From: a virus
Taxonomy: Duplodnaviria > Heunggongvirae > Uroviricota > Caudoviricetes
Length of the DNA stretch: 12,971 nucleotides
Reading direction: 5' to 3' (one strand)
Virus record (IMG/VR): IMGVR_UViG_2718218128_000005
A program made the translations under genes and the position numbers. The notes under the pieces were generated by a model. The model saw only the letters and a program-made list of their open reading frames with translations. It did not search any database and was not told where the DNA came from. This document shows positions 208-10,772 of this stretch, in pieces. Within the stretch, counting starts at the first letter, position 1; each line of letters starts with the position of its first letter.

Positions 208-792
208 TTACTCCCTGACAGGGTTCGTAGGCCACTCAATATCAGGTGCAGTTGATGTATCAACACGGTTCAGCAACACCCGATACTTTTTCCAGGCTTC
301 CAGCAATGAGGTTTCTTCCTCCGTTGCGATTTCCAGATCTACAGCATCCTGAAGTGGCGCAATATGCTCACTGGCTACCTGCATCAGGCTGTTTTTTATT
401 TCTTCCGCCTCTCGGATCCGGAACAGTTTTTCTGCTTCTGCATCTTTCACCCAGGCTGTGCCGTTCCACTTCTGAAACTCCCCTTCCGGCGATAACCAGG
501 TAACATTTTCCGGTAACGGACCGAGTTCAGAAATAAATAACTCGTCCCCTGACGCTACGTCATAAACCGTTTTACCCCGATGGTCTTCAACGAGATGCCA
601 CGATGCCTCATCACTGTTGAAAACAGCCACAAAGCCAGCAGGAATATCTGGTGGTGCAATATCGGTACTGTTTGCTGGCAGACCTGTATGAGGCGGAATA
701 TATGCATCACCTTCACCAATAAATTCATTAGTTCCGGCCAGCAGATTATAAATTTTTATGGTCCGTGCTTGTTCACTCATTCTGAATGCCAT
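208..792 (-). CDS. tfa: Tail fibre assembly protein (lambda Tfa family), apparently intact, 194 aa
   Basis: The translation looks like lambda/lambdoid Tfa proteins from memory. ATG at 792-790; its start overlaps the stop of the upstream tail-fibre frame (TAATG). Confidence 0.88.
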
Positions 793-1067
793 TATGCAAG
801 CCTCACAATATAGTTAAATGCGATGTTTTTGACGGTGTTTTCCGCGTTACCAGCAGCGTTAACGGTGATGGTGTGTCCATGTGACCCTATCGCAACGGAG
901 TGCGTATGAGCACCAATATCCGAATAGAACGATATTGTAAATTCACCTAAATACGAGGCATTGCTGTAGTTGAATTGCAGTACTGTATTAGCCTGACAGT
1001 GACAGAATACGATATTGACTCTGTCACTTGTGAAATGGTCAGAATGGTTAGCAGTTATGGTGATCAG
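792..1067 (-). pseudogene. Side tail fibre (Stf-like) C-terminal remnant, about 91 codons with no start codon
   Basis: My translation of the minus frame 1067..795 is open and ends ...[30 protein letters not shown], which resembles lambdoid side-tail-fibre C-termini. The frame is closed by a stop at 1068-1070 and contains no Met, so the gene is 5'-truncated next to ybcW. Confidence 0.7.
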
Positions 1068-1270
1068 TCAACCAACAGGGAATAATCCTTCGTATTCTTA
1101 TCGTGCTTTACTAACGCGGCCTCAATTGCCCTGAATGCTTCCAGAGATACTTGATGTTCTATACATGCAATTACAACATCAGGGTAACTCATAGAAATGG
1201 TGCTATTAAGCATATTTTTTACACGAATCAGATCCACGGAGGGATCATCAGCAGATTGTTCTTTATTCAT
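1064..1270 (-). CDS. ybcW: Small prophage protein of unknown function, 68 aa (YbcW-like)
   Basis: 68-aa ORF with ATG at 1270-1268. Size, position and divergent orientation relative to ybcV match DLP12 ybcW as I recall it. Confidence 0.6.
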
Positions 1271-1555
1271 TTTGTCGCTCCATGCGCTTGCTCTTCATCT
1301 AGCGGTTAAAATATTACTTCAAATCTTTCTGTATGAAGATTTGAGCACGTTGGCCTTACATACATCTGTCGGTTGTATTTCCCTCCAGAATGCCAGCAGG
1401 ACCGCACTTTGTTACGCAACCAATACTATTAAGTGAAAACATTCCTAATATTTGACATAAATCATCAACAAAACACAAAGAGGTCAGACCAGATTGAAAC
1501 GATAAAAACGATAATGCAAACTACGCGCCCTCGTATCACATGGAAGGTTTTACCA

Positions 1556-1966
1556 ATGGCTCAGGTTGCCATTTTTAAAGAAATATTCGATCAAGTGCGA
1601 AAAGATTTAAACTGTGAATTGTTTTATTCTGAACTAAAACGTCACAACGTCTCACATTATATTTACTATCTAGCCACAGATAATATTCACATCGTGTTAG
1701 AAAACGATAACACTGTGTTAATAAAAGGACTTAAAAAGGTTGTAAATGTTAAATTCTCAAGAAACACGCATCTTATAGAAACGTCCTATGATAGGTTGAA
1801 ATCAAGAGAAATCACATTTCAGCAATACAGGGAAAATCTTGCTAAAGCAGGAGTTTTCCGATGGGTTACAAATATCCATGAACATAAAAGATATTACTAT
1901 ACCTTTGATAATTCATTACTATTTACTGAGAGCATTCAGAACACTACACAAATCTTTCCACGCTAA
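1556..1966 (+). CDS. ybcV: DUF1398-family prophage protein, 136 aa (YbcV/YdfO-like)
   Basis: The track ORF 1433..1966 contains an internal ATG at 1556 preceded by GGAAGG, which gives 136 aa ([13 protein letters not shown]...). Size and position match YbcV. The upstream ATG at 1526 and the track start at 1433 lack a Shine-Dalgarno sequence. Confidence 0.75.
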
Positions 1967-2256
1967 ATCATAACGTCCGGTTTCTTCCGTGTCAGCACCG
2001 GGGCGTTGGCATAATGCAATACGTGTACGCGCTAAACCCTGTGTGCATCGTTTTTAATTATTCCCGGACACTCCCGCAGAGAAGTTCCCCGTCAGGGCTG
2101 TGGACATAGTTAATCCGGGAATACAATGACGATTCATCGCACCTGACATACATTAATAAATATTAACAATATGAAATTTCAACTCATTGTTTAGGGTTTG
2201 TTTAATTTTCTACACATACGATTCTGCGAACTTCAAAAAGCATCGGGAATAACACC

Positions 2257-2550
2257 ATGAAAAAAATGCTACTCGCTACTGCGCTGGCCCTGCTTATTAC
2301 AGGATGTGCTCAACAGACGTTTACTGTTCAAAACAAACCGGCAGCAGTAGCACCAAAGGAAACCATCACTCATCATTTCTTCGTTTCTGGAATTGGGCAG
2401 AAGAAAACTGTCGATGCAGCCAAAATTTGTGGCGGCGCAGAAAATGTTGTTAAAACAGAAACCCAGCAAACATTCGTAAATGGATTGCTCGGTTTTATTA
2501 CTTTAGGCATTTATACTCCGCTGGAAGCGCGTGTGTATTGCTCACAATAA
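2257..2550 (+). CDS. borD: Bor outer-membrane lipoprotein (serum-resistance moron), 97 aa
   Basis: The translation matches lambda Bor as I remember it, with a lipoprotein signal peptide and lipobox LITGC. It sits opposite and convergent to Rz, as in lambda. Confidence 0.95.
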   Translation: MKKMLLATALALLITGCAQQTFTVQNKPAAVAPKETITHHFFVSGIGQKKTVDAAKICGGAENVVKTETQQTFVNGLLGFITLGIYTPLEARVYCSQ

Positions 2551-2556
2551 TTGCAT

Positions 2557-2582
2557 GAGTTGCCCATCGATATGGGCAACTC
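2557..2582. terminator. Palindromic hairpin between convergent bor and Rz
   Basis: GAGTTGCCCAT-CGAT-ATGGGCAACTC: 11-bp perfect stem with a 4-nt loop, overlapping the Rz stop codon. There is no strong U-tract on either strand, so terminator function is uncertain. Confidence 0.3.
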
Positions 2583-3043
2583 TATCTGCACTGCTCATTA
2601 ATATACTTCTGGGTTCCTTCCAGTTGTTTTTGCATAGTGATCAGCCTCTCTCTGAGGGTGAAATAATCCCGTTCAGCGGTGTCTGCCAGTCGGGGGGAGG
2701 CTGCATTATCCACGCCGGAGGCGGTGGTGGCTTCACGCACTGACTGACAGACTGCTTTGATGTGCAACCGACGACGACCAGCGGCAACATCATCACGCAG
2801 AGCATCATTTTCAGCTTTCGCATCAGCTAACTCCTTCGTGTATTTTGCATCGAGCGCAGCAACATCACGCTGACGCATCTGCATGTCAGTAATTGCCGCG
2901 TTCGCCAGCTTCAGTTCTCTGGCATTTTTGTCGCGCTGGGCTTTGTAGGTAATGGCGTTATCACGGTAATGATTAACAGCCCATGACAGGCCGACGATGA
3001 TGCAGATAACCAGAGCGGAGATAATCGCGGTTACTCTGTTCAT
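2582..3043 (-). CDS. rzpD: Rz i-spanin (inner-membrane spanin subunit), 153 aa
   Basis: The translation matches lambda Rz as I remember it. The true ATG is at 3043-3041, overlapping the R stop (ATGA); the track ORF begins 4 codons earlier at a GTG. Confidence 0.93.
2641..2823 (-). CDS. rzoD: Rz1 o-spanin lipoprotein, 60 aa, embedded in the +1 frame of Rz
   Basis: [24 protein letters not shown]... has lipobox VVGC and a proline-rich segment; it matches lambda Rz1 as I remember it. It lies entirely inside Rz. Confidence 0.9.
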
Positions 3044-3537
3044 TGCTGACCCCACAAACAGATTTCACGCTCAATCTCACGACGAGTCATGAGACCTTTC
3101 CATTGCTTACCGCCAGCATATGTCCAGCGACGTAGCTGATCACATGCGCCTTTGATATCGCCCTGGTTTATTTTGCGAAGAAGCGTCGATGTTCTGAAAT
3201 TGCCAGCACCCACGTTGTAAACGAATGAGTAAAGAGCGCCGCGCGTTGTTTCCGGTATATCGACTTTGATGTACGGGTTAATTTGTCTGGCGACAGTGGC
3301 AAGGTCTTTATTCAAGAGTGCTTTGCATTCTGCTTTGGTATACGTTTTACCGAGCATGATGTCTTTTCCTGTATGCCCGTGACATACAGTCCATACACCA
3401 ACAATATCTTTATATGGTATGTAGCTGACACCTTCCAGACCATCGTCACCACTCGGACCAGTGATGAGCACAGACGCTATGGCAACAGCCCCACCACCAA
3501 TAGCAGCTGCTACAGCCTTGCGTAATGATGGCGACAT
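3040..3537 (-). CDS. rrrD: Phage-21-type endolysin with N-terminal SAR domain (T4-lysozyme-like, GH24), 165 aa
   Basis: Gly/Ala-rich weakly hydrophobic N-terminus ([20 protein letters not shown]) followed by an E...D...T catalytic arrangement ([18 protein letters not shown]). Its ATG overlaps the S stop (TAATG). Confidence 0.93.
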
Positions 3538-7031: not shown

Positions 7032-7486
7032 TACGCCTCCTGCTTGTCACGGAGCAGCTGGAACTCGCAGCTCTGCGGAATAGTCAGGTGGCAGCCAATA
7101 TTCACCGCCCAGGCTTCAACCTTACACAGGAAGACATACATCTCTCCGGTATCAAGATCGGAGGTATGGCGTAACGACTGGATAGTGGTGATATCACCGG
7201 TTACGACATCAACCAGGTCTTTGGTTTCATAACCGAGATATGTGTGTTTGAGAGCATCTTTTACCCAAGCTGGAGTGGCGAACGTTTTACCCCTGTTGAT
7301 GAGGTATTCACTGATTTCGCTGTACCACATGTGGCTGAGTGCATTCTGGGAAAGACTGCGTTTCTCACGCCACGGTTTAAGCACCATGCGAAAGCATTTG
7401 CCCTCCTCCAGATAAGGCTGGATCTGCCGACCGATAGCGGTGAAGTTACCGCGATGTAATTTGATGCCATCTTGTGGGAGATTCAC
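7031..7486 (-). CDS. ybcN: YbcN-like nin-region protein, 151 aa
   Basis: 151 aa with a GTG start at 7486-7484 preceded by GGAGGTG. Size and position match DLP12 ybcN. Confidence 0.85.
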
Positions 7487-7682
7487 GCTTCACCTCCGCA
7501 GAGGTCAAACGCTGGATGCAAAAAATCGCAGGTGCATCTCTGCATCTGTGAAGGGAGAAGAGAGTTTGGATTGTATGTGCGCATAAACGTCCCCGTTTAG
7601 CGCAGAAGTCACCGGAGTTGTTCAGGCTCCGATGACATGATTATGGCAAAATGATTATGTAAAATCAAAAGCCAAAAAACAA

Positions 7683-8612
7683 TTATGGTTTATTTTCTAG
7701 CTCTGATTTTTTGAAAGCTTCTATCAGACGATTAGCATCTTCTGTACCACCAGGAAGCACGTTTGATTTTTTAAGAATATACGGTGGGAACTTTGTGGTT
7801 AAATATTCATGCTTAAACCATCTACGAAACTCTGACAATGCAGAATCAGGATAGGCATTAATGATCTGAGGATTGGAACTTGCCTGAAGAAAATCTTCAG
7901 GGTAATAATGCTCACAGTCTACTCTTTCTCCAAATTCTGTTGCTAACCCCTTTGCTTTCCAGTGACGCGCCCAGCAAGAACCAACACTGCCATCAGGTAC
8001 GGTATGCTGATTAATCGCTAATCCAGCATTGATGAGATCTACCATCATACCTGCAATTTCATTAAATATAATGAAATACCCATCAGGTATGGTTCCCTTA
8101 TCTTTTAATAAAGATACTCTGTCATGGTAATGCCTCCACGGGTCCTCCGGTTGATATTTTAGCGCCTCGTATATAAATGTCTTGAGGCCTTTTTTAGCAA
8201 GCTCTCTGTAAGATCTAATTGCAGTCTCACTTTCTGCTTGTTTTGCTTCAAAGGCATAGTATTCAAGTATAGCCATGCATACAACATCTGGATAAGCATG
8301 GTACTCAACACCATTTCGAATTATTGGTATATAAAGTTTTTCATCTGTAAAACCTTCATTAAGAAGATATGTACCAATAAAAGTCATTCTTCCTTTTTTG
8401 AAAATACCGTTCTCAACGGATTGAGCCCACTCATCGGTAATTTCCTTGATTCGCAAACGCTGAACACCACAAACATTTGCCAACCCATTCTGAGTAAGGT
8501 ACGGAATTCCGTTATCGAGTACCCCCATTTCTATACCGTTAATGACAGCCTCTTGCTTAACATCTAAGTCTAAAGGTATGGATCTGAGGGAGGTAGTTCT
8601 CTGTTGTGCCAT
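7683..8612 (-). CDS. AT-rich cargo gene of unknown function, 309 aa; candidate anti-phage/abortive-infection protein with a possible KilA-N/APSES-like N-terminal domain (BstA-like architecture is a hypothesis)
   Basis: Long ORF with ATG at 8612-8610 preceded by AGGA at 6-nt spacing (the track ORF starts 5 codons earlier at TTG). The N-terminal stretch VINGIEMGVLDNGIPYLTQNGLANVCGV resembles the DG-x-x-W-V-N-A-T-x-I-L-K-A-A-G core of KilA-N/APSES domains. The gene looks markedly more AT-rich than the flanking phage genes. The confidence given is for a real CDS, not for the functional call. Confidence 0.7.
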   Translation of the reverse strand: MAQQRTTSLRSIPLDLDVKQEAVINGIEMGVLDNGIPYLTQNGLANVCGVQRLRIKEITDEWAQSVENGIFKKGRMTFIGTYLLNEGFTDEKLYIPIIRNGVEYHAYPDVVCMAILEYYAFEAKQAESETAIRSYRELAKKGLKTFIYEALKYQPEDPWRHYHDRVSLLKDKGTIPDGYFIIFNEIAGMMVDLINAGLAINQHTVPDGSVGSCWARHWKAKGLATEFGERVDCEHYYPEDFLQASSNPQIINAYPDSALSEFRRWFKHEYLTTKFPPYILKKSNVLPGGTEDANRLIEAFKKSELENKP

Positions 8613-8718
8613 TTTTGATCCTATCAATTTGAATTCATTGAAAAAATTAGGTGTTCCCTATGCATTAGAACACTCATCATAGTAACCCCACTCGTTTGTG
8701 AAAAAAACTAATTTCACA

Positions 8719-8744
8719 ATCAGTTAACTCTCAAAATAACTGAT
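8719..8744. promoter_or_regulatory. Perfect 8-bp inverted repeat with a 10-bp spacer in the AT-rich leader of the 309-aa gene; candidate operator
   Basis: ATCAGTTA(8719-8726)-N10-TAACTGAT(8737-8744), about 110 bp upstream of the start codon. Confidence 0.3.
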
Positions 8745-8816
8745 ATTCATACTCTCGCTATCCCATATATAGACATCCTTGTTTTAATACAACACTCATG
8801 GCTGGCGGCTATACTC

Positions 8817-9134
8817 CTAACAGATTTGACGCAAATACGGCAATACTCGACTCCACTTATCATCCTGCCACGGCTGAAGTTTTACATGTGCCGTTTCTCG
8901 GACGAGGATTGCTCGCGCTCTGTTGAGTATCTGGGGATATTCTTGCTCGATGGAAGTGAAGTGACCAGCTTCACCATGCTCCGCATCCTGAAGAAGATGA
9001 GTAACGTTCTGGTAGGCAATTAACATCACATTCCCTGCTCGCCATAACCAGGCGAGTGTGCAAAGTTCGTTATCAGTGAATTGTTTTGTGATTGGGGATT
9101 GTTGAACTGCTAGAACGAGAACGCCAGCATCCAT
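8817..9134 (-). CDS. Hypothetical protein, 105 aa, upstream of the 309-aa cargo gene
   Basis: ORF bounded by a stop 3 codons upstream of its ATG, with a weak AGGGA Shine-Dalgarno sequence. No family recognised. It looks more GC-rich than its AT-rich flanks, so it could be a remnant or a real small gene. Confidence 0.4.
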   Translation of the reverse strand: MDAGVLVLAVQQSPITKQFTDNELCTLAWLWRAGNVMLIAYQNVTHLLQDAEHGEAGHFTSIEQEYPQILNRARAILVRETAHVKLQPWQDDKWSRVLPYLRQIC

Positions 9135-9245
9135 TGGCAGTCCCTATAGTAAAACCATAGCTCAGGACGCTTCGTTCAGGATAGATAATTTTATTGTACT
9201 TACCTAACTTTCTTACTATAGCACGGTTGAAAAAGTGATTATTAC

Positions 9246-10772
9246 TCAAAAATAAACCTCACCATCAACCATATATTTGAGAGTACTTATCGCCTGCTGG
9301 GCGGATATTGTTTTCATTAAAGGATAGTGTTTAAAAACAATGCCATTCATAAAATAGATATCACAGGTTTTATTATCTGTATTGATTATGATTTTTTCGA
9401 ATGTTTTATAGGCAAGTGTACGACATAGCTCTCGCCCATTTTTACTGGTTAAGTCAATAGCATGAAAATCACCAAGTGAGCTCACCGCTTTACTCTTCAA
9501 AGTTTTTAATGATACAGAAGCCCTTCGTAATTCCTTATCTAATACTCTGATTTTTTCTGCTATAGCGGTAACTTCAGGCGCAACAGATAATGCAGCAATT
9601 AAATTATTAATTTTCATCTGGAGCTCAATAATTTTCAACTCTAAAGTTTCATTAGCATCTTTCTTGTTTTCAACTGGTTGGATTTTACTACAATTAAAAA
9701 GCAACTCATTAATGATATTATAATCAACCAAATCTCTCTTTATTGATGGCCTGTCACATCGATGCAGTCTTCTCATCGGACAAACATAATAGCCATGCAA
9801 ACTTCCAGATACCGCATGAACAATCATGGTATTACCACAAGCCTCGCACTTCATAACTGTTCGAAGTAGATTTATCAACATAGGGTTTTTGCTACTATTG
9901 CTAATACCAAAAGGTGCCAACCGAATTTCCTGCACAGCGTAAAACAAATCATCTGATATGACTCTGGGATAATAGCCAGCGATTTCACTTATTCCTTTAC
10001 CTCTTGCACGATATGAAGGTACGCATATACCTATCAGAGCTTTATTCGCTAATAATTTTTCAATTACAGAAGGTCCCCATGCACTTTCTTTTCCTGAGAA
10101 ATTCTTTACAGCATGATCATTTAAATACTTGGCTATTGCATTCAATGAGCGCCTTTCCATCCTGAGTTTAAAAATTAGCTCAATAGTTTTCACCCTGTCG
10201 GGGTCTGGAACAAAAGCCGTTCTTTTGTCATCTAAGGAGAGCCATCTCGGACAAGACGCCGTCATAATCGTGCCTGACTCCAGTGCATCCTGCCGTTTTT
10301 TCTTCCATGATAATTTAACCCGACTTGACTTTATCTCGCTTTCTTCATTTGCCCTTTGTGCTATAAGTATGGCTTTTATTAATGAATATGGATCATTCAA
10401 AGAGTCAATATTATAGACTGTATTATCGCAAAGAGTTATAACATCAATACCGTGATTCAAAATCAATTTCAGACGCTCAATCGCTTCACCGACTTTTTCT
10501 CTTGAAAGTCTGTCCAGACTTTCAACTAACAATGTAGTTCCTGGCAATATATAACCATGCTCTATAGCATCTAAAAATTCCGAAAAAGCTCCTGATTGTG
10601 CATGCTTTCCTTTGAATGCACTTAATCCTAAATCTTCATATGTTATGGTATCAAGATAATAATCACTATTTACCTTTAACCATTCAGCAATAAGTCTTCT
10701 CTGTCGGTTTAATGAGTCGCCAGACATCTGACCTGGTGATGAAAATCGCATATATGCTATGGCTTTTTTCAT
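9246..10772 (-). CDS. ybcK: Large serine recombinase (resolvase/invertase N-terminal catalytic domain plus recombinase and zinc-ribbon regions), 508 aa (YbcK-like)
   Basis: N-terminus AIAYMRFSSPGQ... carries the serine-recombinase catalytic Ser motif, and there is a Cys cluster (CEACGN...YYVCP...HRC). AGGTG Shine-Dalgarno sequence; 508 aa equals the DLP12 YbcK length. Confidence 0.9.
   Translation of the reverse strand: MKKAIAYMRFSSPGQMSGDSLNRQRRLIAEWLKVNSDYYLDTITYEDLGLSAFKGKHAQSGAFSEFLDAIEHGYILPGTTLLVESLDRLSREKVGEAIERLKLILNHGIDVITLCDNTVYNIDSLNDPYSLIKAILIAQRANEESEIKSSRVKLSWKKKRQDALESGTIMTASCPRWLSLDDKRTAFVPDPDRVKTIELIFKLRMERRSLNAIAKYLNDHAVKNFSGKESAWGPSVIEKLLANKALIGICVPSYRARGKGISEIAGYYPRVISDDLFYAVQEIRLAPFGISNSSKNPMLINLLRTVMKCEACGNTMIVHAVSGSLHGYYVCPMRRLHRCDRPSIKRDLVDYNIINELLFNCSKIQPVENKKDANETLELKIIELQMKINNLIAALSVAPEVTAIAEKIRVLDKELRRASVSLKTLKSKAVSSLGDFHAIDLTSKNGRELCRTLAYKTFEKIIINTDNKTCDIYFMNGIVFKHYPLMKTISAQQAISTLKYMVDGEVYF

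What the first reader, a model, noticed from the sequence alone, without database searches (positions are those of the whole stretch)
8628..9245. Upstream 105-aa ORF and an operator-like inverted repeat may form a regulatory unit with the cargo gene
A 105-aa ORF (8817..9134) of different composition lies immediately upstream on the same strand. A perfect 8-bp inverted repeat (8719..8744) sits in the 189-bp AT-rich leader between the two genes. The ORF could be a regulator or partner of the cargo gene, or a decayed phage remnant. I could not assign a family and there is no obvious helix-turn-helix motif.
Basis: seen in the sequence. Interest (0 to 1): 0.45.

Follow-up and report, generated by a model that had tools for sequence, protein, structure and literature searches.

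The report
Truncated phage gene beside BstA cassette
The 105-aa ORF is the leftover C-terminal half of a lambdoid-phage Bro/antirepressor-like gene that borders a swap-in cargo slot, here filled by a self-contained BstA anti-phage gene; the ORF is not BstA's partner and the inverted repeat is not a conserved part of BstA's control region, so the proposed regulatory unit is not supported.

Summary
A 105-aa ORF lies at 8817-9134 on the minus strand, and a perfect 8-bp inverted repeat at 8719-8744 abuts a second one at 8696-8719. The cargo gene (7683-8612) is BstA, a known prophage abortive-infection protein. The ORF is a 5'-truncated copy of a 200-202-aa Bro-N + P22AR_C gene and keeps only the C-terminal domain. 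Its DNA is in 838 E. coli genomes, against about 109-120 with this bstA. It precedes at least five other cargoes. It carries a stop codon in one locus with identical BstA, and is full-length ahead of the same bstA in another. None of 78 species-representative BstA loci, none of the roughly 20 viral contigs with 89-92% identical BstA and none of the phage records inspected has a P22AR_C neighbour. The inverted repeats occur only in this clonal cassette. In 13 related leaders they are at background identity (0.38), whereas a -10-like box and two direct repeats 57 bp apart around the start codon are conserved (0.81-0.87). Those direct repeats match the geometry of the mapped aba self-immunity element of BTP1. 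The same 56/57-bp spacing is enriched in 44 of 85 BstA loci, apparently unreported. The finding itself is ordinary and of low interest.

The parts
8817..9134 (-). 105-aa ORF: a 5'-truncated Bro-N/P22AR_C (Ant/Rha-like) lambdoid nin-region gene. Only the P22_AR_C domain is left, and the first ~10 codons (MDAGVLVLAV) are new, frame-shifted sequence.
   Evidence: Pfam P22_AR_C E=7.7e-14, residues 15-85. PHROG 7640 E=1.7e-69. 78% identical to residues 101-198 of the 202-aa Bro-N+P22_AR_C protein of L003. In the DNA alignment, homology to the full-length gene starts at the ATG, with a 1-nt indel.
9135..9245 (-). Spacer between the ybcK stop and the ORF's ATG. It is the 3' flank of the emrE-ylcJ-ybcK module and replaces the Bro-N-coding half of the ancestral gene.
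   Evidence: It is shared with ybcK-bearing loci (L002, L004) but has no homology to the Bro-N half in L003. No promoter-like site was found on the minus strand here.
8826..8835 (.). Left boundary of the variable cargo slot, inside the last 4-5 codons of the ORF.
   Evidence: Window, L002 and L003 are homologous up to about 12-15 nt before the stop and then diverge, giving the tails ..LRQIC..LRSDRLQ and ..LRSERL.
8719..8744 (.). It lies -107 to -132 from the bstA ATG.
   Evidence: Perfect arms. Hairpin -6.8 kcal/mol with no U-tract. Found only in loci with this exact cassette. Identity to 13 related leaders is 0.38.
8696..8719 (.). Inverted repeat I1: TTGTGAAA-N8-TTTCACAA, abutting I2. Its promoter-proximal arm overlaps the candidate -35.
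   Evidence: The left arm plus loop scores 0.39 and the right arm 0.50 identity to relatives. SA31-1 has a 1-nt insertion in the loop.
8676..8704 (-). Candidate sigma-70 promoter of bstA: TTTTCA-N17-TATGAT, with the neighbouring TACTAT as an alternative -10.
   Evidence: It is the only promoter-like match on this strand in the leader, although the count of such matches is not above chance. A -10-like TATCATA/TATTATA is conserved at the aligned position in most of the 13 relatives.
8591..8659 (-). Predicted aba (anti-BstA) self-immunity element. It consists of direct repeats AGGGAAC-ACCT (8659-8649) and AGAGAACTACCT (8602-8591), about 57 bp apart and flanking the start codon.
   Evidence: The geometry matches the mapped BTP1 aba (63 bp, from -29 to +34, terminal CCCGCC repeats; PMC8585504). 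The match is 8/12 gapless, or 11 of 12 alignment columns with one indel. Copy 1 scores 0.81 and the 10-nt block 8602-8593 within copy 2 scores 0.87 identity across 13 relatives. Orthologous repeats are seen in Xenorhabdus and Lonsdalea.
7683..8612 (-). bstA, a 309-aa abortive-infection protein (the 'cargo gene').
   Evidence: PHROG 6287 BstA E=1.9e-136. PADLOC BstA E=3.6e-121, positions 5-291 of a 292-position profile. 40% identical to BstA of BTP1 and 61% to a second E. coli allele. RefSeq product 'BstA C-terminal domain-containing protein'.
7640..7670 (-). Right boundary of the cargo slot. A conserved promoter-like TTGATT-N17-CATAAT starts about 14 bp after the bstA stop, ahead of the ylcH-like ORF (7483-7584) and ybcN.
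   Evidence: All six loci with different cargo regain homology here. Promoter-like site with a TG extension.
9246..10772 (-). ybcK-type large serine recombinase (508 aa), part of the emrE-ylcJ-ybcK module that abuts the truncation point.
   Evidence: Resolvase, Recombinase and Zn_ribbon_recom domains. Annotated ybcK.

Best explanation
The window is a DLP12-like lambdoid prophage. Between the replication genes (P, ren) and ybcN/ninE lies a cargo slot. Its left flank is the 3' end of a Bro-N + P22AR_C ('Rha/Ant-like') gene, and its right flank is a conserved promoter-like box ahead of ylcH-ybcN. In this lineage the emrE-ylcJ-ybcK module has replaced the Bro-N-coding half of that gene. What remains is a 105-aa ORF that starts at a fortuitous ATG and encodes only the C-terminal domain. 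The slot (about 8830 to 7670) is filled by a self-contained bstA cassette. That cassette has its own AT-rich leader with a conserved -10-like box, a Shine-Dalgarno sequence, and two direct repeats 57 bp apart around the start codon, which I predict to be its cognate aba self-immunity DNA.

By homology with the BstA proteins tested by Owen et al. 2021, the lysogen would express BstA and abort replication of infecting phages. The aba DNA would spare the prophage itself. The ORF belongs to the phage backbone and serves mainly as a homology arm for cassette exchange. It is not a regulator or partner of bstA. The two inverted repeats are lineage-specific DNA between the slot boundary and the conserved bstA control region. 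At most they are a local, dispensable operator overlapping the -35.

Shown here: domain content, truncation, boundaries, distribution and conservation. Inferred: promoter use, aba function, the Abi phenotype and the role as a recombination arm.
For: BstA identity is supported.

Truncation:
- The ORF matches residues 101-198 of 200-202-aa Bro-N+P22_AR_C proteins.
- DNA homology starts at its ATG.

The ORF is a backbone gene, not a partner:
- ORF DNA is in 838 of 5,426 E. coli genomes, against 109-120 with this bstA.
- After the ORF come BstA, a 118-aa, a 260-aa and a 169-aa protein, or a HEPN pair.
- The 169-aa cargo follows both truncated (L012) and full-length (L013, PhiR26_1) versions.
- The same bstA cassette follows a full-length 200-aa version in strain H14.
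- The ORF has W29* in SA31-1, whose BstA is identical.
- In L004-type loci it has lost its ATG, has a 5-bp deletion and is cut after about 170 bp; about 170 genomes retain only a ~100-bp match to its 5' end.
- dN/dS is 0.05 between full-length copies but 0.15-0.31 among truncated ones (0.82 for the closest pair, on four changes).
- Homologues form a ladder of 61-121 aa, and every one that carries a source name is from E. coli.

BstA occurs without the ORF:
- The three phage BstA loci inspected (BTP1, Klebsiella RCIP0114, Pseudomonas PseuP_222) lie downstream of cI-like repressors, and no phage record is shared between the BstA hit list and the ORF hit list.
- 0 of 78 species-representative loci has P22_AR_C in the upstream ORF.
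- None of about 20 viral contigs at 89-92% BstA identity has it.

Inverted repeats:
- They are present only in the clonal cassette.
- Identity to 13 related leaders is 0.38-0.39, against 0.81-0.87 for the direct repeats.

Against: The truncated ORF is intact in nearly all of the ~109 bstA loci, and its dN/dS is below 1. Some function as a stand-alone C-terminal domain therefore cannot be excluded, although recombination with full-length copies could also explain both facts.

Two abutting perfect 8-bp inverted repeats in a 204-bp leader are unlikely by chance (P about 0.009). One overlaps the best -35 candidate, which is where an operator would sit.

The window's own direct-repeat pair is weak without a gap (8/12).

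The promoter scan as a whole is not above chance (6 found, 6.2 expected).

No expression data were available. This BstA allele (309 aa) is not the one tested experimentally; BstA-Ec is 897 bp and its cloning primer is absent from the window.
Confidence: 0.85

Rival explanations
1. One reading: the 105-aa protein is a dedicated regulator or partner of bstA and acts through the inverted repeat as its operator.
For: Same strand and adjacent position. The repeat pair sits at or upstream of the best -35 candidate. The ORF is intact in most bstA-bearing genomes.
Against: No DNA-binding domain is left, because Bro-N is lost. The families do not co-occur outside one clonal cassette. The ORF precedes at least five other cargoes whose leaders lack these repeats. 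SA31-1 has W29* with identical BstA. The repeats are absent from leaders of 89-92% identical bstA genes.
Confidence: 0.04
2. The truncated ORF still makes a functional stand-alone P22AR_C-domain protein, for example a modulator of a repressor or antirepressor, that serves the prophage independently of bstA.
For: The same truncation junction persists across sub-lineages and in a viable phage, Turner. dN/dS is 0.15-0.31, below 1. An AGGGA motif lies 7 nt before the ATG. PHROG 7640 is a family of about 107 aa.
Against: Constraint is relaxed 3- to 6-fold relative to full-length copies. Premature stops and fragments are common: L012 has 99 aa, SA31-1 has W29*, the L004 type has lost its ATG, and homologues range from 61 to 121 aa. 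No stand-alone family was seen outside E. coli. No promoter-like site lies upstream. The low dN/dS may be inherited through recombination with full-length alleles.
Confidence: 0.15
3. The repeat pair is a lineage-specific operator of the bstA promoter. It would be bound by a host factor or a prophage repressor, not by the ORF product, and would tune BstA levels in this prophage only.
For: Two perfect abutting palindromes have shuffle P(>=2)=0.009. The I1 arm overlaps the candidate -35 and I2 lies at -50 to -75 of the inferred transcription start. The arms are unchanged in the three variant leaders seen, while one indel falls in a loop.
Against: The repeats are not conserved in any related bstA leader. 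I could recall no known operator consensus that matches them, and the TGTGA..TCACA spacing of 12 is wrong for CRP (both points rest on my own knowledge of consensus sites). The variation available is far too small to show constraint. The promoter itself is only predicted.
Confidence: 0.2
4. The repeats are the aba self-immunity element of this BstA, or alternatively RNA hairpins that terminate or insulate transcription coming from the ORF.
For: They lie in the bstA leader, and the paper's bstA 'locus' includes upstream sequence (PMC8585504). Both hairpins appear in the centroid fold of the leader RNA. Other cassettes have hairpins in the same position, one of them terminator-like.
Against: The mapped aba overlaps the start codon and depends on direct, not inverted, repeats. 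The conserved 57-bp direct-repeat pair lies elsewhere, at 8591-8659. The hairpins are weak (-6.8 and -7.5 kcal/mol), AT-rich and lack a U-tract, and the terminator scan did not report them. The leader fold has z=-0.16. There is no Rfam match in the leader; the only match in 7400-9400 is a sub-threshold snoRNA hit inside bstA.
Confidence: 0.06

Closest known systems
BstA/aba abortive-infection system of Salmonella prophage BTP1 and its E. coli and Klebsiella homologues (Owen et al. 2021, PMC8585504)
   Same: The cargo gene is a full-length BstA family member. It is prophage-borne and has a candidate direct-repeat pair about 57 bp apart straddling the start codon, like the 63-bp aba with terminal CCCGCC repeats.
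   Different: It is only 40% identical to BstA-BTP1 and is not the tested BstA-Ec allele. It sits in the nin-region slot of a DLP12-like prophage rather than downstream of the cI repressor. The aba here is predicted, not mapped, and the repeat words differ.
Bro-N + P22AR_C ('Rha'/Ant-like) proteins of lambdoid phages, e.g. the 202-aa gene in E. coli 2014C-3051 and phage PhiR26_1
   Same: The ORF's residues 11-102 are the C-terminal domain of these proteins, at 78-82% identity. The position between ren and ybcN is the same.
   Different: The Bro-N half is missing. The N-terminus is novel out-of-frame sequence. Selective constraint is relaxed.
Variable cargo or defence hotspots of temperate phages (P2/P4 hotspots; PD-lambda systems in lambdoid prophages; BstA-carrying lambda-like prophages at the tRNA-Arg hotspot, PMC10121019)
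   Same: Conserved flanks enclose interchangeable cargo: BstA, a HEPN pair, unknown proteins, and PD-lambda-1 nearby in PhiR26_1. Hochhauser et al. found bstA only in lambda-like prophages at tRNA-Arg.
   Different: I did not find the exact slot described in the papers searched. That slot runs from the last codons of the P22AR_C gene to the TTGATT-N17-CATAAT box before ylcH-ybcN. Most alternative cargoes have no defence annotation.
E. coli K-12 DLP12 ybcK-ybcL-ybcM-ylcH-ybcN region
   Same: Same backbone and gene order: emrE, ybcK, ylcH-like ORF, ybcN, ninE, ybcO, rusA, quuD, porin.
   Different: From my own knowledge, K-12 carries ybcL/ybcM in the slot. This was not re-checked here. The window instead has the ORF remnant plus bstA.

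Membership tests
BstA abortive-infection proteins (cargo gene) | Full-length sequence match to BstA family profiles | tested here: met
   PHROG 6287 E=1.9e-136, positions 2-303 of 304. PADLOC BstA E=3.6e-121, positions 5-291 of 292. Aligns end to end with BstA-BTP1.
BstA abortive-infection proteins (cargo gene) | N-terminal KilA-N-like DNA-binding domain plus a distinct C-terminal domain | tested here: inconclusive
   Pfam gives no hit. A PADLOC HTH model hits residues 25-150 at E=2e-8. RefSeq names a BstA C-terminal domain. No structure was predicted.
BstA abortive-infection proteins (cargo gene) | Cognate aba DNA element overlapping the start codon, with terminal direct repeats | tested here: inconclusive
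   A candidate pair lies at 8659-8649 and 8602-8591, about 57 bp apart. The match is 8/12 gapless, or 11 of 12 alignment columns with one indel. It is conserved in relatives at 0.81 and 0.87. Function was not tested.
BstA abortive-infection proteins (cargo gene) | Abortive-infection phenotype and inhibition of phage DNA replication | not testable with these tools
   Known only for BstA-BTP1, BstA-Ec and BstA-Kp (PMC8585504).
P22 Ant / Bro-type antirepressor-like proteins (105-aa ORF) | P22_AR_C C-terminal domain | tested here: met
   PF10548 E=7.7e-14, 52 bits against a cut-off of 22.4.
P22 Ant / Bro-type antirepressor-like proteins (105-aa ORF) | N-terminal Bro-N, AntA or KilA-N type domain | tested here: not met
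   Absent from the window ORF. Present in the full-length relatives, Bro-N E=1e-13. DNA homology to that half is missing.
   0 of 78 upstream ORFs of BstA homologues carry P22_AR_C. tblastn finds one weak hit, 2.7 kb away, in 80 loci. None is found in about 20 contigs at 89-92% identity. The ORF occurs with at least five other cargoes.
   The repeats occur only in the clonal cassette. Identity to 13 related leaders is 0.38. Other cassettes behind the same gene have different hairpins or none.
   Only P22_AR_C was detected. There is no PADLOC or NCBIfam hit.
Intrinsic (Rho-independent) terminator (for the repeats) | GC-rich stem followed by a U-tract | tested here: not met
   The terminator scan did not report them. 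Stems have 2 GC pairs, energies are -6.8 and -7.5 kcal/mol, and there is no U-tract.
Prophage cargo or defence hotspot | Conserved flanks with interchangeable, unrelated cargo between them | tested here: met
   The left boundary is about 8830 and the right about 7670. Cargo includes BstA, 118-aa, 260-aa and 169-aa proteins, a HEPN pair and an alpha/beta hydrolase.

The most novel reading that the evidence does not exclude
The leader holds the cognate aba self-immunity element of this BstA variant, at about 8591-8659. aba elements would then follow a family-wide rule: two locus-specific 10-12-nt direct repeats spaced 56-57 bp apart, one just upstream of the start codon and one within the first ~10 codons. 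This would allow aba to be predicted in any BstA locus and suggests that BstA reads two sites about 5.4 helical turns apart. The inverted repeats would then be an unrelated, lineage-specific add-on, possibly a local operator.
Probability: 0.55. Interest if true: 0.55.

Novelty: already known. Interest (0 to 1): 0.25.

Why it matters
For the finding as posed, it matters little. It resolves an unassigned ORF as a truncated backbone gene and the 'cargo' as a known defence gene, so nobody needs to pursue a regulator-operator model here.

Two by-products may be useful:
- A precisely bounded cargo slot in DLP12-like and other lambdoid prophages. Several recurrent cargo genes of unknown function (118, 169 and 260 aa) occupy the same position as BstA and a HEPN pair, which makes them reasonable candidates for new anti-phage genes.
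- A sequence rule for the aba element, namely direct repeats 56-57 bp apart around the start codon in about half of BstA loci. This turns the open question of how aba DNA silences BstA, and where aba lies in untested homologues, into something directly testable.

Tried and rejected
- CRP or another known operator for I1: the TGTGA..TCACA spacing is 12, not 6, and no other consensus that I could recall fits. This rests on my own knowledge and was not searched formally.
- RNA element in the leader: the fold z-score is -0.16, and Rfam gives nothing in the leader; the only match in 7400-9400 is a sub-threshold snoRNA hit inside bstA.
- Terminator: rejected.
- Is this the experimentally tested BstA-Ec? 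No. That gene is 897 bp and its cloning primer is absent from the window.
- DNA search of the cassette against phage genomes: no match, so the origin of the unique 125 bp (8704-8830) that carries the repeats remains unknown.
- NCBIfam gave nothing for any protein.
- PDB sequence search with the full-length Bro-N/P22AR_C protein: no hit.
- Using E. coli copies for covariation: the cassette is clonal (at least 99% identical in 109 genomes), and only three leader variants were seen, so the test has no power.
- Extra copies of the repeat motifs elsewhere in the window: none, even with up to 3 mismatches.
- Structure prediction was not run, because it would not bear on the co-occurrence question.
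Full report
**1. Observation**

The window is a DLP12-like lambdoid prophage read mostly on the minus strand. In order it holds P, ren, emrE, ybcK, the 105-aa ORF, a 309-aa gene, a ylcH-like ORF, ybcN, ninE, ybcO, rusA, Q, a porin and lysis genes.

- The 105-aa ORF is real, at 8817-9134 on the minus strand.
- The perfect 8-bp inverted repeat at 8719-8744 (I2) is real.
- A second perfect repeat (I1) lies at 8696-8719 and shares its boundary base with I2.
- The downstream gene most likely starts at ATG 8612, which has an AGGA Shine-Dalgarno and is the RefSeq start. The leader is therefore 204 bp at 33.8% GC.
- Shuffles give P(>=1)=0.035 and P(>=2)=0.009 for such repeats in the leader. The 13-kb window contains about ten comparable repeats, so the pair is moderately, not dramatically, non-random.

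**2. What the genes are**

The 'cargo gene' is BstA, the prophage abortive-infection protein described by Owen et al. 2021.

- PHROG 6287 gives E=1.9e-136 and the PADLOC BstA model gives E=3.6e-121, both near full length.
- It is 40% identical to BstA of BTP1 and 61% to a second E. coli allele.
- It is not the tested BstA-Ec of NCTC10963, which is 897 bp and whose cloning primer is absent here.
- Hochhauser et al. 2023 already recorded bstA in lambda-like prophages at the tRNA-Arg hotspot. From my own knowledge, that is the DLP12 attachment site.

The 105-aa ORF carries only a P22_AR_C domain (PF10548, E=7.7e-14).

**3. The ORF is a truncated backbone gene**

- In E. coli 2014C-3051, LR1 and H14, and in phage PhiR26_1, the same position holds a 200-202-aa protein with Bro-N plus P22_AR_C.
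- The window ORF matches residues 101-198 of that protein at 78% identity.
- In DNA, homology to the full-length gene begins at the ORF's ATG, with a 1-nt indel. The first ten codons are therefore out-of-frame novelty.
- Upstream of the ATG is the 3' flank of the emrE-ylcJ-ybcK module.
- The same truncation junction is present in other E. coli prophages and in the viable phage Turner.

**4. The ORF borders a cargo slot and bstA is one of many fillers**

Homology among loci with different cargo ends 12-15 nt before the ORF's stop, at about 8830. It resumes about 14 bp after the bstA stop, at about 7670, at a conserved TTGATT-N17-CATAAT box.

The slot holds different cargo in different loci:

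| Cargo | Loci |
|---|---|
| BstA | window, L001 |
| 118-aa protein | L002, L011, phage Turner |
| 260-aa protein | L010 |
| 169-aa protein | L012 (truncated ORF); L013 and PhiR26_1 (full-length gene) |
| HEPN pair | L003 |
| alpha/beta hydrolase | L004 |

PhiR26_1 also has PD-lambda-1 nearby.

ORF DNA is in 838 of 5,426 complete E. coli genomes. This bstA allele is in 109-120 of them, at 99% identity or more and always at the same place, which points to one ancestral insertion.

**5.

(a) Disruption in otherwise identical loci. Strain SA31-1 has a single G-to-A change that gives W29* in the ORF, while its BstA is identical. In L004-type loci the remnant has lost its ATG, carries a 5-bp deletion and stops after about 170 bp. 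About 170 genomes retain only a ~100-bp match to the ORF's 5' end. L012 has a 99-aa version.

(b) Co-occurrence.
- The same bstA cassette, including the '...LPYLRQIC' tail, follows a full-length 200-aa gene in strain H14, whose prophage lacks emrE-ybcK.
- BstA in BTP1, Klebsiella RCIP0114 and Pseudomonas PseuP_222 lies downstream of cI-like repressors.
- A second E. coli allele sits alone in an unrelated prophage.
- Of 78 species-representative BstA loci, none has P22_AR_C in the nearest upstream ORF. tblastn finds one weak hit, 2.7 kb away, in 80 loci.
- About 20 viral contigs with 89-92% identical BstA lie in other nin-like contexts and have no P22AR_C. Upstream they have P63C, Lar/DUF551 or dATP/dGTP pyrophosphohydrolase genes, and downstream NinG or DUF1367.

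**6. Is the remnant still functional?**

dN/dS over the shared 87 codons is 0.05 between full-length copies. Among truncated ones it is 0.15-0.31, and 0.82 for the closest pair, which differs by only four changes. Homologues form a ladder of 61-121 aa, and every one that carries a source name is from E. coli.

This shows relaxed constraint but not proven neutrality. Recombination with full-length alleles, which the cassette swapping implies, could keep the ORF looking healthy. I give a residual 0.15 to an independent function.

**7. The inverted repeats**

- They occur only in loci carrying this exact cassette: 5 fetched E. coli loci and 6 viral contigs that are 100% identical in BstA.
- They are absent from the leaders of the other cassettes behind the same gene.
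- They are absent from the leaders of the closest BstA relatives: Lonsdalea 74%, Xenorhabdus 75%, CwR94 60% and E. coli allele 2.
- They are absent from 13 distinct leaders of the 89-92% group.
- Column identity to those 13 leaders is 0.38 for I2, 0.39 for the I1 left arm plus loop, and 0.50 for the I1 right arm.
- As RNA, the hairpins are weak (-6.8 and -7.5 kcal/mol) with no U-tract. The leader as a whole folds no better than shuffles, and no Rfam family matches in the leader; the only match in 7400-9400 is a sub-threshold snoRNA hit inside bstA.
- The only sigma-70-like match on the gene's strand (TTTTCA-N17-TATGAT, 8704-8676) has its -35 inside the I1 right arm. A -10-like TATCATA/TATTATA is conserved at the aligned position in most of the 13 relatives.

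The repeats therefore sit at or upstream of a plausible promoter, in DNA that is not part of the conserved, portable bstA unit. A local operator role remains possible (0.2) but is not needed for bstA in general and is unconnected to the ORF.

**8. What is conserved in the leader**

The best-conserved non-coding stretch is AGGGAACACCT at 8659-8649, with identity 0.81. A near-copy, AGAGAACTACCT, lies at 8602-8591 inside codons 4-7; the 10-nt block 8602-8593 within it scores 0.87. The two are about 57 bp apart. Orthologous pairs with 57-bp spacing occur in Xenorhabdus (-51/+7) and Lonsdalea, and a different word pair with the same spacing occurs in Klebsiella phage RCIP0114.

This is the geometry of the experimentally mapped aba of BTP1. 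That element is 63 bp, runs from -29 to +34, and has essential terminal CCCGCC direct repeats 56 bp apart (PMC8585504).

Across 85 BstA loci:
- The best direct-repeat spacing around the start codon peaks sharply at 56-57 bp, in about 35 loci, against a background of about 1 per spacing.
- 44 loci have at least 9/12 identity at 56/57 bp. Control spacings away from the peak give 1-13 loci (the overlapping spacing pairs give 23 and 28), and shuffles give a mean of 5.8 and a maximum of 13.
- The first copy lies at a median of -38 from the start codon.
- There are 32 distinct repeat words, and the signal does not depend on the upstream neighbour.

The paper's text does not describe this for homologues, and I found no follow-up in the library. 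I therefore predict the aba of this cassette at about 8591-8659, not at the inverted repeats. The window's own pair is weak when scored alone (8/12 gapless), so this remains a prediction.

**9. Mechanism**

Shown here: domain content, the truncation, the slot boundaries, the distribution and the conservation pattern.

Inferred from Owen et al. 2021 by homology: the lysogen expresses BstA from its own promoter, BstA blocks DNA replication of infecting phages that lack the cognate aba (abortive infection), and the aba DNA spares the resident prophage on induction.

Inferred from mosaic patterns: cassettes are exchanged by homologous recombination, using the P22AR_C gene and the ylcH-ybcN flank as arms.

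**10. Verdict**

The features are real, but the proposed regulatory unit is not supported. The ORF is a decayed, truncated phage backbone gene and the cargo is a known defence gene, so the finding is ordinary. The by-products, a defined cargo slot with unknown recurrent cargoes and a family-wide aba geometry, are worth a note.

Noticed in passing
window 8591-8659; loci L007, L008, L016-L095, L111-L127: Direct repeats spaced 56-57 bp apart flank the start codon in about half of 85 BstA loci. 44 loci have at least 9/12 identity, against 1-13 at control spacings away from the peak. There are 32 distinct repeat words. This matches the geometry of the mapped BTP1 aba element. The 2021 paper does not describe it for homologues.
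   Followed up: partly
L019, L020, L023, L028, L029, L032, L035, L045, L057, L059, L072, L074 and others: 17 of 78 species-representative BstA loci have an IS1595/ISXO2-type transposase (PF12762) as the nearest upstream ORF. In the loci inspected it is a 305-323-aa ORF on the same strand, with a gap of -7 to about 130 bp. This suggests that BstA travels as an IS passenger gene in Alpha- and Betaproteobacteria.
   Followed up: no
slot equivalent to window 7670-8830; L002 3775-4131, L010 1637-2419, L012 1850-2359, L003 3809-4605: The same slot holds recurrent cargo genes of unknown function (118, 260 and 169 aa) and a HEPN plus 133-aa pair. None hits PADLOC except for a weak HEPN match. They are candidate novel anti-phage genes.
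   Followed up: partly
window 7640-7668 (minus strand): A conserved promoter-like TTGATT-N17-CATAAT box with a TG extension lies at the right edge of the cargo slot. It is shared by all six loci compared, whatever their cargo, and lies ahead of the 33-aa ylcH-like ORF and ybcN.
   Followed up: no
L005 (Escherichia phage Turner, PP925837.1) 774-3324: An isolated, apparently viable lambdoid phage carries the 'DLP12' emrE(qacE)-ylcJ-ybcK module together with the same truncated P22AR_C ORF. The module and the truncation are therefore not confined to cryptic prophages.
   Followed up: no
phage records H93-H100 (e.g. Escherichia phage 4A7, about 41.45-41.61 kb): Lambda-like phages have an unannotated stretch that matches residues 1-54 of the ORF at 54% identity. 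It may be another remnant of the same gene in the nin region.
   Followed up: no
L098 (E. coli H14) 1123-2351; hit H1 (strain 118C_1_fosA3): IS elements are inserted in or next to the bstA cassette in some strains. H14 has an IS3 immediately downstream of bstA, and H1 has IS3 and IS1A within the 7400-9300 equivalent.
   Followed up: no
window 9122-9139 (minus strand): A weak terminator-like hairpin (5 bp stem, 8-nt loop, T-rich tail) overlaps the ORF's ATG. If it is real, it would limit read-through from ybcK into the ORF.
   Followed up: no
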